Below are positions 3,854 to 6,800 of a DNA stretch of 64,000 bases, one piece after another. This DNA comes from Escherichia coli. Lineage in GTDB: Bacteria > Pseudomonadota > Gammaproteobacteria > Enterobacterales > Enterobacteriaceae. The DNA is taken from the NCBI RefSeq assembly GCF_030013205.1, contig NZ_CP122648.1; one strand, written 5' to 3'. Made by a program: the position numbers. The number at the start of each line of letters is the position of its first letter. Within the stretch, counting starts at the first letter, position 1.

Positions 3854-6800
3854 TAAGTTATCTGTTCTTTAAAAATAAGGAAATGTTTTAATTTAGTTGG
3901 TAGATTGTTGATGCGGAATAAATTTGTTTAAAAACAGTTATGTATGCTTAGTGTGTTCCCCGCGCCAGCGGGGATAAACCGCATAATCCCGGCTGGAAAC
4001 ATTGCGGGGGTAAGTGTTCCCCGCGCCAGCGGGGATAAACCGCGACCGATCCCGCTGTTGCAACTTTTATTGAGGTGTTCCCCGCGCCAGCGGGGATAAA
4101 CCGGTGATGAGGAAAAGCTAATAGAATGGCGACGCGTGTTCCCCGCGCCAGCGGGGATAAACCGGTCCACGGTTCGACGCCTACCGCCGCAGCTATGTGT
4201 TCCCCGCGCCAGCGGGGATAAACCGTTGTCGGGCTTGTTCGGCGCGGGTTGTTAACTGTGTTCCCCGCGCCAGCGGGGATAAACCGCCAGTCGAAGATCT
4301 GGACGCGTGGGGAAAAGCGTGTTCCCCGCGTCAGCGGGGATAAACCGGACGCACTGGATGCGATGATGGATATCACTTAGAATTCCCCGCCCCTGCGGTA
4401 GAACTCCCAGCTCTCATTTTCAAACCCATCAAGACGCCTTCGCCAACTCCTTCACCAGAGGTAGCATTATCCGCATAACGTCACGGCAGCGACGTTCTAT
4501 TCTTCCAGGAAGTGCCTTATCAATATGTTGTTGATTATCCAGTCTTACGTCATGCCAGCTATTTCCCGCAGGGAATGCAGCTGTTTTTGCGCGTTGCTGA
4601 TAACCATCCTTATTCCCAAGATTCCAATTTGTTGCTTCTACCGAAAGTACGGCAATACCGGCTTTGTCGAAAACTTCGGCGTCATTACAACAGCCAGTAC
4701 CCTTCGGATAATTTTTATTCAAACCCGGATTGGTCGTTGCGGCAATTCCATGACTACGCGCAATTGCCAGCGCCCTGTCGCGCGTTAATTTCCTTACTGC
4801 TTCAGGGGTTTTTACACCGCTGTTGAAATACAATTTATCGCCAACAATTAAGTTATCGAGATTAATCACCAGCAGCGTATTTTTCTTTTCGGTGTCACTC
4901 ATCCGCTTGAGTAAATTCTCAGCACCTAATTTCCCTTCCTCTTCACCACTGGTCGCCACAAATCGAATACCATACTCGGTAGGCGTATTTTTCAGGCGTT
5001 CTGCCAGTTCCAGCATGACACCTAAACCTGCGGCGTTATCATCCATTCCTTGTAACGTCAGCCCGCCGAGATTGGCATCGGCGTCAGCATCGCTCAGCGG
5101 GGCGTATGTATCCAGATGCGCCATAATGATGATCTGCTGCGGCGCTTTGCCTTCATGAGCGGCAATCACCGTACTTCCCGTCACGTTATGCCAGCTCTTG
5201 CGATTATCGCGGGCGGTATAAATATACCGACTATTAAATGTCCGAATATCACTGCGATAACCCATTTGCTGAAACTGTTGGCGAATATAATCGGCAGATA
5301 ACATTTCTGCAGGAGTTCCGGTCATGCGTCCCGGAAAGAAAGTAGCAATATGTCGTGCCTGAGTATTAGCAAAATCGCCAGGTTTAGGTGACGAGGCGTG
5401 TACGGGGAGAATAAAGCATACGCCGAGCGCCAGGGCAGCGGTACGGTGGCGCAATGCGGAAAACATAGTGAGTCCTTAAATACCATGCAAATTTTTTTAC
5501 CGCCATAGTATGAAACTGCCGCTGCGCTAAAACAATTTCAAATCTTCCTAAACGCCCGAAATCCGGTGCCTTAAGCACTTTTTGATATTAGCTTTGCCAA
5601 ATCGTTATTCCGTTAAGGAACTACTCATTCTAATTGGTAATTTCATTCGTTCTCTTACGCTCCCTATAGTCGAAACATCTGATGGCAAGAAAATAGCGGT
5701 ATTGCAAAGGAACGGTTATGGATCAAATACGACTTACTCACCTGCGGCAACTGGAGGCGGAAAGCATCCACATTATTCGCGAGGTGGCGGCAGAATTCTC
5801 AAATCCGGTGATGCTCTACTCTATCGGTAAAGATTCCAGCGTCATGCTGCATCTGGCGCGCAAGGCGTTTTATCCAGGTACGCTGCCTTTCCCGTTGCTG
5901 CATGTCGATACCGGCTGGAAATTCCGCGAGATGTATGAGTTCCGCGATCGTACGGCTAAAGCCTACGGCTGCGAGCTGCTGGTGCATAAAAACCCGGAAG
6001 GCGTGGCGATGGGGATTAATCCATTCGTTCATGGCAGCGCGAAACATACCGATATTATGAAAACTGAAGGCCTGAAACAGGCGCTGAATAAATACGGTTT
6101 TGATGCCGCCTTCGGTGGTGCACGCCGCGACGAAGAGAAATCCCGCGCTAAAGAGCGAATCTACTCTTTCCGTGACCGCTTCCATCGCTGGGATCCGAAA
6201 AATCAGCGCCCGGAGCTGTGGCACAACTACAACGGGCAAATTAACAAAGGCGAAAGCATTCGCGTCTTCCCACTCTCTAACTGGACCGAGCAGGATATCT
6301 GGCAATACATCTGGCTAGAAAATATTGACATTGTTCCACTGTATCTCGCTGCGGAACGTCCGGTTCTGGAACGCGACGGTATGTTGATGATGATTGATGA
6401 CAACCGTATCGACCTGCAACCGGGCGAAGTGATTAAAAAACGGATGGTGCGTTTCCGTACGCTGGGCTGCTGGCCGCTGACCGGTGCGGTGGAGTCAAAT
6501 GCACAAACACTGCCGGAAATCATCGAAGAGATGCTGGTTTCCACCACCAGTGAACGTCAGGGCCGCGTGATTGACCGCGACCAGGCGGGGTCTATGGAGC
6601 TGAAAAAACGTCAGGGGTATTTTTAAGATGAACACCGCACTTGCACAACAAATCGCCAATGAAGGCGGCGTCGAAGCCTGGATGATTGCGCAACAACATA
6701 AAAGCCTGCTGCGTTTTCTGACCTGTGGTAGCGTCGATGACGGCAAAAGTACCCTGATTGGTCGCCTGCTGCACGATACCCGCCAAATCTACGAAGATCA

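What the first reader, a model, noticed from the sequence alone, without database searches (positions are those of the whole stretch)
3857..4408. CRISPR array architecture: repeat variant, one mutated repeat, degenerate terminal repeat
The repeat GTGTTCCCCGCGCCAGCGGGGATAAACCG differs at position 2 from the K-12 repeat as I recall it (GAGTT…). Repeat 7 (4319-4347) has a C>T change in the stem, and the last unit (4380-4408) is heavily degenerate, marking the leader-distal end. All spacers are exactly 32 bp. Spacers: S1 cataatcccggctggaaacattgcgggggtaa, S2 cgaccgatcccgctgttgcaacttttattgag, S3 gtgatgaggaaaagctaatagaatggcgacgc, S4 gtccacggttcgacgcctaccgccgcagctat, S5 ttgtcgggcttgttcggcgcgggttgttaact, S6 ccagtcgaagatctggacgcgtggggaaaagc, S7 gacgcactggatgcgatgatggatatcactta.
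Basis: seen in the sequence. Interest (0 to 1): 0.4.

Follow-up and report, generated by a model that had tools for sequence, protein, structure and literature searches.

The report
Ordinary E. coli type I-E CRISPR array
This is the standard chromosomal CRISPR array that sits beside the type I-E cas genes in about half of all E. coli, here in the form carried by a pig-associated lineage, and it is already annotated and described, so it is ordinary.

Summary
Seven 29-nt repeats lie at 3953-4347 with an exact 61-nt period. A 96-nt AT-rich leader (3857-3952) follows cas2e, and iap lies downstream. One detail is wrong: the C>T change in repeat 7 is in the hairpin's tetraloop, not the stem, and leaves the predicted stability unchanged.

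The window is E. coli chromosome. The locus is 100% identical in 10 complete pig-derived genomes, where RefSeq already annotates it as CRISPR. The GTGTT repeat is not unusual. It goes with the non-K-12 "I-E1" cas/leader variant, whose cas2-leader-repeat junction is found in about 50% of complete E. coli genomes, against about 23% for the K-12 type. The C13T repeat, spacer S7 and the degenerate repeat form the conserved "anchor" end, shared even with K-12 and described by Almendros et al. 2014.

Only spacer S3 has a target. It matches a tail fibre assembly gene of temperate myovirus prophages at 32/32 and 29/32, both with an ATG PAM. Close relatives differ from this array only by loss of repeat-spacer units.

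Verdict: already known, low interest.

The parts
202..1257 (+). cas7e (casC), 351 aa, intact
   Evidence: NCBIfam TIGR01869, 448 bits against a cut-off of 178. No internal stop codons. 31% aa identity to K-12 CasC.
1268..2014 (+). cas5e (casD), 248 aa, intact
   Evidence: NCBIfam TIGR01868, 158 bits against a cut-off of 69. 34% aa identity to K-12 CasD.
1996..2646 (+). cas6e (casE), 216 aa, the pre-crRNA endonuclease
   Evidence: NCBIfam TIGR01907, 288 bits against a cut-off of 45. 27% aa identity to K-12 CasE.
2643..3566 (+). cas1e, 307 aa (GTG start, as annotated in the identical RefSeq genome)
   Evidence: NCBIfam TIGR03638, 381 bits against a cut-off of 216. 85% aa identity to K-12 Cas1. 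Annotated.
3563..3856 (+). cas2e, 97 aa
   Evidence: NCBIfam TIGR01873, 129 bits against a cut-off of 33. 82% aa identity to K-12 Cas2.
3857..3952 (+). Leader: 96 nt, 25% G+C (window mean 53%), of the L1 type
   Evidence: Composition. It aligns with the K-12 leader, sharing conserved blocks (CTTTAAnAATAAGGAAATGTT, GTTGGTnGnTTGTT). The cas2 3' end, leader and repeat 1 (3700-3981) are found at >=90% identity in 2,732 of 5,426 complete E. coli genomes.
3953..4347 (+). Array core: seven 29-nt repeats (R1-R7) and six 32-nt spacers (S1-S6), period 61
   Evidence: The same interval is annotated 'CRISPR' by PGAP in the identical genome K_EC180. The repeat folds into a 7-bp stem with a 4-nt loop, -15.2 kcal/mol, z = -3.2.
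3982..4013 (+). Spacer S1 (leader-proximal, so newest by position)
   Evidence: Found only in arrays of 15 pig-derived E. coli genomes. No target in phage, plasmid, IMG/VR, GTDB-genome or metagenome searches.
4043..4074 (+). Spacer S2
   Evidence: Found only in arrays of 17 pig-derived E. coli genomes. No target found.
4104..4135 (+). Spacer S3, the only spacer with an identified target
   Evidence: 32/32 match with a 5' ATG PAM in IMG/VR prophage contig L011 4274-4305, inside the 3' part of a tail fibre assembly gene next to the tail sheath gene. 29/32 match with an ATG PAM and an intact seed in a prophage tail fibre assembly gene of E. coli GF43.
4165..4318 (+). Spacers S4 (4165-4196), S5 (4226-4257) and S6 (4287-4318), with repeats R5 and R6 between them
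   Evidence: S5 is in arrays of more than 100 E. coli genomes. S4 and S6 are in fewer. No targets found.
4319..4347 (+). Repeat 7, with a C13T change in the loop (GCCA>GTCA)
   Evidence: The same change is in the last full repeat of all nine other E1-type arrays examined and of K-12.
4348..4379 (+). Spacer S7, the conserved 'anchor' spacer (oldest)
   Evidence: Present with 2-3 mismatches at the same terminal position in K-12 and in every other array examined. Described as a conserved tandem with the degenerate repeat in PMC3903273.
4380..4408 (+). Degenerate terminal repeat (18/29 identical to the consensus)
   Evidence: Weak predicted hairpin, -6.4 kcal/mol. Near-identical in other strains and similar in K-12.
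4429..5466 (-). iap, the flanking gene that defines the CRISPR-I locus position
   Evidence: NCBIfam NF007568, 705 bits. Annotated iap. PMC3903273 places the CRISPR-I locus between iap and cysH.

Best explanation
This is the CRISPR2.1 array of the E. coli CRISPR-I locus (iap-cysH), belonging to the 'I-E1' variant of the type I-E CRISPR-Cas system.

**How it works (inferred from established type I-E biology, not shown here).** The array is transcribed from the leader towards iap. Cas6e cuts each repeat hairpin at its 3' base. This yields 61-nt crRNAs made of an 8-nt AUAAACCG handle, a 32-nt spacer and a 21-nt GUGUUCCCCGCGCCAGCGGGG hairpin handle. These crRNAs load into Cascade. Cascade finds DNA carrying a 5' AAG/ATG-type PAM and a matching seed, and recruits Cas3 to destroy it. 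Cas1-Cas2 add new spacers at the leader-proximal repeat, so S1 is the youngest spacer and S7 the oldest.

**What is shown here.** The repeat, spacer and leader anatomy and the repeat hairpin are confirmed. The five cas genes in the window are intact and score as type I-E. The genomic position matches the CRISPR-I locus. Spacer sharing among strains follows the expected polarity. One spacer (S3) matches temperate myovirus prophages with the correct PAM.

**The array end.** The last unit (the C13T repeat, S7 and the degenerate repeat) is an inherited 'anchor' conserved across E. coli. S7 probably gives no properly matured crRNA, because its 3' repeat cannot form the Cas6e hairpin (inference).

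**Activity.** The system is probably kept mostly silent by H-NS, as it is in K-12 (inference from established knowledge). Within this lineage the array has changed only by losing units.
For: - **Anatomy:** seven 29-nt repeats at a 61-nt period, 32-nt unique spacers, and a degenerate eighth repeat.
- **Hairpin:** 7-bp stem and 4-nt loop, -15.2 kcal/mol.
- **Cas genes:** cas7e, cas5e, cas6e, cas1e and cas2e lie immediately upstream, all above the NCBIfam I-E cut-offs and without stop codons. cas3, casA and casB are intact in K_EC180, which is 99.99% identical over the first 14 kb of the window.
- **Leader:** 25% G+C and homologous to the K-12 leader.
- **Identity in public genomes:** the locus is 100% identical in 10 complete pig-derived E. 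coli genomes and is annotated CRISPR there.
- **E1 variant:** the Cascade subunits are 27-34% identical to K-12's, and Cas1/Cas2 are 82-85% identical. This fits the I-E1/I-E2 split, each with its own leader, described in PMC3903273.
- **Frequency:** the E1-type junction is in 2,732 of 5,426 complete genomes. The K-12 type is in 1,222.
- **Anchor end:** S7, the degenerate repeat and C13T are shared with K-12 and all arrays examined.
- **Polarity:** S1 and S2 occur only in 15-17 pig genomes, S5 in more than 100, and S7 in every array examined, K-12's included.
- **Target:** the S3 protospacer matches 32/32 and 29/32, each preceded by ATG, and the PAM's G coincides with the repeat's last G.
Against: - No expression, processing or interference data can be obtained with these tools.
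- The strict sigma-70 scan found no promoter in the leader.
- Rfam returned no CRISPR repeat family for the array.
- Six of seven spacers have no identifiable target in any collection searched.
- Among the 17 related pig-lineage genomes the arrays differ only by deletions, with no new leader-proximal spacer. This argues against ongoing adaptation.
- cas3, casA and most of casB lie outside the window, so their integrity is known only from the near-identical genome.
Confidence: 0.96

Rival explanations
1. The array is an inactive relic. It is a true CRISPR array by descent, but it no longer acquires spacers or defends the cell. It persists as a neutral marker that only erodes by recombination between repeats.
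For: - The five different arrays seen among the 17 pig-lineage genomes all derive from S1-S7 by loss of units: S4-S5 lost, S1 plus S4-S5 lost, or S3 lost. None has an extra leader-proximal spacer.
- Six of seven spacers match nothing known.
- PMC3903273 notes reduced activity, H-NS repression and the non-essential nature of the E. coli I-E system.
Against: - All five cas genes in the window are intact and score well above family cut-offs. cas3, casA and casB are intact in the near-identical genome.
- Six of the seven repeats are perfectly identical, and the leader is conserved.
- This reading differs from the best explanation only in present-day activity, not in what the feature is.
Confidence: 0.35
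2. The array is transcribed in the opposite orientation, with the functional leader on the iap side. The reader's spacer strings would then be reverse complements of the guides.
For: None beyond the general point that array orientation cannot be read from the repeats alone. The promoter scan found no consensus promoter on either side.
Against: - The AT-rich segment next to cas2 aligns with the experimentally studied K-12 leader.
- The degenerate repeat is at the iap end.
- The iap-side flank is only 20 nt before the iap stop codon.
- Strain-specific spacers are at the cas2 end and universally shared ones at the iap end.
- Both S3 protospacers have ATG directly 5' of the spacer sequence read on the + strand, with its G matching the repeat's terminal G.
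Confidence: 0.01
3. It is not a CRISPR array but another kind of interspersed repeat (REP/BIME-like, or a coding repeat). For example, the 142-aa and 80-aa minus-strand ORFs that cross it might be real genes.
For: the ORF listing reports minus-strand ORFs at 3948-4376 and 3928-4170 across the array. PGAP even calls a 'hypothetical protein' inside the equivalent array of strain ETEC6334.
Against: - Those ORFs exist only because the repeat has no stop codon in that frame. Their products are the repeat peptide reiterated.
- The exact 61-nt period, unique spacers, adjacent I-E cas operon, leader and phage protospacer with a PAM are all specific to CRISPR.
Confidence: 0.01

Closest known systems
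E. coli K-12 MG1655 CRISPR-I (CRISPR2.1) array with the I-E2 cas operon
   Same: - Same chromosomal position, between iap and the cas2-cas1-cas6e-cas5-cas7 genes.
- Same 29-nt repeat and 32-nt spacer, 61-nt period.
- Same hairpin.
- Homologous leader.
- Same terminal spacer (2 mismatches) and a similar degenerate last repeat.
- The last full repeat also carries T at position 13.

   Different: - Twelve of the 13 full K-12 repeats have A, not T, at position 2.
- All spacers except the anchor differ.
- The alignment spanning the leader is 83% identical by mean column identity, and that span includes the conserved repeat.
- Cascade subunits are only 27-34% identical in protein sequence. Cas1 and Cas2 are 85% and 82% identical.

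E. coli 'I-E1' cas variant with L1 leader and the conserved spacer plus degenerated-repeat 'anchor' (Almendros et al. 2014, mBio, PMC3903273)
   Same: - The paper describes two cas-E variants, each with its own leader.
- It describes a hok/sok module by cas3 in some arrangements. A Hok/Gef gene precedes cas3 in the near-identical genome.
[quoted passage not shown]
- The paper lists the group A strains UMNF18 and S1191 as exceptions to the rule that group A strains carry cas-E2. From my own knowledge these are pig pathogens, which fits the pig-derived lineage here.
   Different: Nothing structural. I assigned E1 by exclusion (it is not the K-12/E2 type, and it is the type found in half of E. 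coli). I did not align it to a named E1 reference from that paper.
Arrays of related pig-derived E. coli (O139:H1 W13-16, ETEC6334, ETEC4068) and the human isolate AF40
   Same: Identical leader, repeats, C13T repeat, S7 and terminal repeat. Shared spacers keep the same order.
   Different: - W13-16 lacks S4-S5.
- ETEC6334 lacks S1 and S4-S5.
- ETEC4068 lacks S3.
- AF40 has 20 spacers, with S3, S5, S6 and S7 in the same order among others, and lacks S1, S2 and S4.

Membership tests
CRISPR array (general) | Short direct repeats of constant length at a constant period, separated by unique spacers of similar length | tested here: met
   Seven 29-nt repeats (six identical, one with 1 mismatch) at a 61-nt period. 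Seven different 32-nt spacers, none repeated elsewhere in the window.
CRISPR array (general) | AT-rich leader on one side and a degenerate repeat at the opposite end | tested here: met
   Leader 3857-3952 is 25% G+C against a 53% window mean. The terminal unit 4380-4408 is 18/29 identical to the consensus.
Type I-E CRISPR-Cas (E. coli subtype) | Adjacent cas1e, cas2e, cas6e, cas5e and cas7e (plus cse2, cse1 and cas3) | tested here: met
   Five genes in the window pass the NCBIfam I-E cut-offs. casB, casA and cas3 lie beyond the window start but are annotated intact in K_EC180, which is 99.99% identical over the first 14 kb of the window.
Type I-E CRISPR-Cas (E. coli subtype) | Palindromic 29-nt repeat forming the Cas6e hairpin, ending in ...AUAAACCG | tested here: met
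   Positions 5-11 pair with 16-22, with a GCCA loop, -15.2 kcal/mol. The stem and 3' tail are identical to the K-12 repeat.
Type I-E CRISPR-Cas (E. coli subtype) | Protospacers flanked 5' by an AAG/ATG-type PAM whose G coincides with the last base of the repeat | tested here: met
   Met for S3 only. Both protospacers are preceded by ATG. That ATG is an accepted I-E PAM comes from my own knowledge of the literature, not from a test here. The other six spacers have no known target.
Type I-E CRISPR-Cas (E. coli subtype) | Transcription from the leader, Cas6e processing into 61-nt crRNAs, and Cascade/Cas3 interference | not testable with these tools
   No expression or functional data are available. 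The consensus promoter scan of 3700-4600 found nothing.
Type I-E CRISPR-Cas (E. coli subtype) | IHF site in the leader that directs integration to the first repeat | tested here: inconclusive
   Only 2-mismatch matches to WATCAANNNNTTR were found. One is at -36..-24 in the window, at the same place as a 2-mismatch match at -35..-23 in K-12. Matches this weak are expected by chance in AT-rich DNA.
E. coli CRISPR-I locus / CRISPR2.1 array | Location between iap and cysH, with the array between cas2 and iap | tested here: met
   iap at 4429-5466 on the - strand. cysH lies upstream of cas3 in the near-identical genome. Locus definition from PMC3903273.
E. coli CRISPR-I locus / CRISPR2.1 array | Conserved terminal tandem of one particular spacer plus a degenerated repeat at the iap end | tested here: met
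   S7 and the terminal repeat are shared with K-12 and nine other arrays. Described in PMC3903273.
I-E1 variant (versus K-12 I-E2) | cas genes and leader of the non-K-12 sequence type | tested here: met
   Cascade subunits are 27-34% identical to K-12's and the leader is visibly divergent. The same junction occurs in 2,732 genomes against 1,222 with the K-12 type. The assignment is by exclusion of E2. It was not aligned to a named E1 reference.

The most novel reading that the evidence does not exclude
S1 and S2 are found only in 15-17 pig-derived genomes and match nothing in any collection searched. They could be recent natural acquisitions by the I-E1 system within this porcine ETEC/oedema-disease lineage, taken from mobile elements not yet sequenced. 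That would be evidence that the E1 variant is active in the wild, unlike the silent K-12 system.
Probability: 0.15. Interest if true: 0.3.

Novelty: already known. Interest (0 to 1): 0.08.

Why it matters
It matters little. The array is already annotated in RefSeq in identical genomes, and its architecture (E1-type repeat and leader, conserved anchor end) is published.

Its practical uses are modest:
- **Lineage marker.** The spacer set S1-S7 and its deletion derivatives mark a pig-associated E. coli lineage.
- **Target record.** S3 documents a past encounter with a temperate myovirus, in a tail fibre assembly gene with an ATG PAM.

For the scan, the finding serves as a clean positive control.

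Tried and rejected
- **Rfam.** The permissive search of 3400-5000 and the gathering-threshold search of the whole window found no CRISPR repeat family. They returned only a chance Chlorobi-1 match (15.8 bits against a gathering score of 50) and four tRNAs. This says nothing against the array.
- **Promoter scan of 3700-4600.** No sigma-70 consensus site was found in the leader. The scan is strict, and the K-12 leader promoter is not consensus-like either, so I draw no conclusion.
- **IHF consensus scan of the leader.** Only 2-mismatch matches were found. Inconclusive.
- **Spacer targets in phage and plasmid collections.**
  - All seven spacers against INPHARED phages at E<=1: nothing.
  - Against PLSDB plasmids: only other CRISPR arrays, three of them on chromosome-sized records filed as plasmids.
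- **Spacer targets in IMG/VR.** I searched with N at every sixth position, the positions known to tolerate mismatches in I-E. S1, S2, S4, S5, S6 and S7 gave nothing.
- **Spacer targets in larger collections.**
  - GTDB species genomes for S1 and S4: nothing.
  - JGI metagenomes for S2 and S1: nothing.
- **Self-targeting.** No spacer has a second copy (up to 8 mismatches) in the window. In 5,426 E. coli genomes, every match listed for S1-S6 lies in a CRISPR array. The one exception is the S3 protospacer in strain GF43.
- **Minus-strand ORFs across the array.** I considered and rejected them as genes. They are artefacts of the repeat.
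Full report
**1. The observation**

Reading 3500-4800, the repeat finder and a position-by-position check agree.

- The 29-nt repeat GTGTTCCCCGCGCCAGCGGGGATAAACCG starts at 3953, 4014, 4075, 4136, 4197 and 4258.
- A seventh copy at 4319-4347 has one change, C13T. Every start-to-start distance is 61.
- An eighth in-register unit, 4380-4408 (GAATTCCCCGCCCCTGCGGTAGAACTCCC), keeps 18 of 29 consensus positions. The binomial chance is P~3e-5.
- No further copy of the repeat (up to 9 mismatches) and no second copy of any spacer (up to 8 mismatches) exists in the 64-kb window.

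The stated start, 3857, is not the first repeat. It is the first base after the cas2e stop codon, so 3857-3952 is the 96-nt leader (25% G+C against a window mean of 53%).

One detail is wrong. Folding shows that positions 5-11 pair with 16-22 around a 4-nt loop at 12-15. The C13T change in repeat 7 is therefore in the loop (GCCA to GUCA), not the stem. Both versions fold at -15.2 kcal/mol. The degenerate terminal unit folds weakly, at -6.4 kcal/mol.

**2. What it is**

*Setting.*
- The ORFs upstream are cas7e (202-1257), cas5e (1268-2014), cas6e (1996-2646), cas1e (2643-3566) and cas2e (3563-3856).
- All five are free of internal stop codons and score far above the NCBIfam type I-E cut-offs.
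- Downstream on the minus strand is iap (4429-5466).

*Source genome.*
- A megablast of 3300-5000 against 5,426 complete E. coli genomes finds the stretch 100% identical in 10 genomes, all from pigs (K_EC180, EC556/571/581 and several ETEC strains).
- Window 1-14000 is 99.99% identical to K_EC180.
- In K_EC180, PGAP annotates cysH, a Hok/Gef gene, cas3, casA, casB, cas7e, cas5e, cas6e, cas1e, cas2e, then a 'CRISPR' feature, then iap.
- The CRISPR feature corresponds to window 3953-4347.

So this is the CRISPR-I locus (CRISPR2.1 array) of E. coli, as defined in Almendros et al. 2014 (PMC3903273).

**3. The 'repeat variant'**

The K-12 array was fetched for comparison.
- Its last full repeat is GTGTT....
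- All nine other non-K-12 arrays I parsed use GTGTT throughout.

The cas genes explain the difference.
- The Cascade subunits here are only 27-34% identical in protein sequence to K-12's.
- Cas1 and Cas2 are 85% and 82% identical.
- The leader is homologous but clearly diverged.

This is the published dimorphism of E. coli I-E systems. Variant E1 has leader L1, and variant E2 (K-12) has leader L2 and 'L2-specific CRISPRs' near the leader.

The E1 form is the commoner one.
- The cas2-end/leader/repeat-1 junction of the window is present at >=90% identity in 2,732 of 5,426 complete genomes.
- The K-12 junction is present at >=95% identity in 1,222.

The window therefore carries the majority form, and K-12 is the unusual one. 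I assigned E1 by exclusion of E2, not by alignment to a named E1 reference.

**4. The 'mutated' repeat and the degenerate end**

- In every array examined, the last full repeat carries C13T. This covers nine E1-type arrays from pigs, humans, a mouse and a plasmid, plus K-12.
- The last spacer is S7 with 0-3 mismatches, and the terminal repeat is nearly the same sequence.
[quoted passage not shown] The paper proposes that it acts as an 'anchor'.
- In other strains the T13 repeat is common throughout the array, for example 13 of 19 repeats in KE55.

**5. Spacer history**

Among 5,426 genomes, the spacers are distributed as follows.

| Spacer | Where it occurs |
|---|---|
| S1 | Arrays of 15 genomes, all pig-derived (ETEC and O139:H1 strains) |
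| S2 | Arrays of 17 genomes, all pig-derived |
| S3, S4, S6 | The pig lineage plus a handful of other genomes |
| S5 | More than 100 genomes |
| S7 | K-12 and every other array examined |

This is the polarity expected if new spacers enter at the leader.

Related arrays are deletion derivatives.
- O139:H1 W13-16 has S1 S2 S3 S6 S7.
- ETEC6334 has S2 S3 S6 S7.
- ETEC4068 has S1 S2 S4 S5 S6 S7.
- The human isolate AF40 has S3, S5, S6 and S7 in the same order inside a 20-spacer array.

No relative has an extra leader-proximal spacer. Within the lineage the array has only eroded.

**6. Spacer targets**

BLAST of all spacers found nothing in 50,697 phage records at E<=1. In plasmids it found only other arrays.

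Exact scans used N at every sixth position. From my own knowledge of I-E Cascade, those bases are flipped out and tolerate mismatch. In IMG/VR these scans gave one hit, for S3.

*First S3 target.*
- L011 4274-4305 matches 32/32 and is preceded by ATG.
- The site lies in the 3' part of a tail fibre assembly gene. That gene is split by a frameshift in this contig (phrog_136).
- The next gene is the tail sheath gene (phrog_23).

*Second S3 target.*
- It lies in a prophage of E. coli GF43, in the annotated tail fibre assembly gene of a contractile-tail prophage.
- It matches 29/32, with mismatches at positions 14, 15 and 32 and an intact seed.
- It is again preceded by ATG.

In both cases the G of the PAM coincides with the terminal G of the repeat, as expected for I-E acquisition (own knowledge). 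This independently fixes the orientation of the array.

Further scans found nothing. I searched one genome per prokaryotic species for S1 and S4, and JGI metagenomes for S2 and S1.

**7. Mechanism**

*Shown here:* the anatomy, the hairpin, intact I-E cas genes, a homologous leader, the polarity of spacer sharing, and one protospacer with a PAM.

*Inferred from established type I-E biology (K-12 work, own knowledge).*
- Transcription runs from the leader.
- Cas6e cleaves after G21 of each repeat, giving 61-nt crRNAs with an 8-nt 5' handle, a 32-nt spacer and a 21-nt 3' hairpin.
- Cascade loads the crRNA, recognises the PAM and seed, and forms an R-loop. Cas3 degrades the target.
- Cas1-Cas2 integrate new spacers at repeat 1.
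- H-NS silences the system under ordinary conditions.

*Further inferences.*
- The T2/A2 difference lies in the single-stranded part of the 3' handle, upstream of the stem. It may co-vary with the very different Cas6e and Cascade of the two variants.
- S7 probably yields no properly matured crRNA, because the degenerate repeat lacks the hairpin.

**8. Rivals**

- **Inactive relic.** This differs from the main reading only in present-day activity. It is favoured by the deletion-only variation and opposed by the intact genes and perfect repeats. It cannot be settled here.
- **Opposite orientation.** Excluded by leader homology, the degenerate end, spacer polarity and the PAM side.
- **Non-CRISPR repeat or coding ORFs.** Excluded. 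The minus-strand ORFs across the array are repeat artefacts, as is a PGAP 'hypothetical protein' in ETEC6334.

**9. Verdict**

This is a real, correctly located, fully ordinary E. coli type I-E (E1 variant) CRISPR array. It is already annotated in identical public genomes, and its special features are already described in the literature. Novelty: already known. Interest: low.

Noticed in passing
L010 (plasmid NZ_LC542972.1, pIOMTU792, record 240815-252967): A 293-kb conjugative IncHI2A plasmid carries a chromosomal-type casB-cas7e-cas5e-cas6e-cas1e-cas2e-CRISPR-iap segment. The array includes S5 and S7. The segment lies about 2 kb from a WbuC / blaCTX-M-15 / ISEcp1 unit. This suggests the E. 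coli CRISPR-I region was captured onto a resistance plasmid.
   Followed up: partly
window 18703 and about 18719-19416: An IS1 element interrupts pphB in the variable region between rpoS and mutS. At the junction next to the IS1, the window lacks 298 bp of the pphB fragment that K_EC180 retains. The window therefore comes from a close relative of K_EC180, not from that strain.
   Followed up: partly
window 61928-62652: A tRNA-Ser(GCU) is followed by three tRNA-Arg(ACG) genes inside a 275-nt tandem duplication, 2.1 copies at 91% identity. From memory, K-12 has four Arg genes in this serV-argVYZQ cluster.
   Followed up: no
window 3928-4376 (- strand) and L004 1594-1716: Long spurious ORFs of 142 and 80 aa run through the CRISPR array on the minus strand, because the repeat has no stop codon in that frame. 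In strain ETEC6334, PGAP annotates a 'hypothetical protein' inside the array and no CRISPR feature there.
   Followed up: yes
L011 3806-4383: In the IMG/VR prophage contig that carries the perfect S3 protospacer, the tail fibre assembly gene is split by a frameshift near 4207. The N-terminal part matches profile positions 2-108 of phrog_136, and the C-terminal part matches 124-167 in another frame. This is either a sequencing error or a decaying prophage.
   Followed up: partly
window about 37400-38150: A HigB-family toxin and HTH antitoxin pair sits between hycI and ascB, according to the annotation of the near-identical genome. Window coordinates are estimated from the alignment offset.
   Followed up: no
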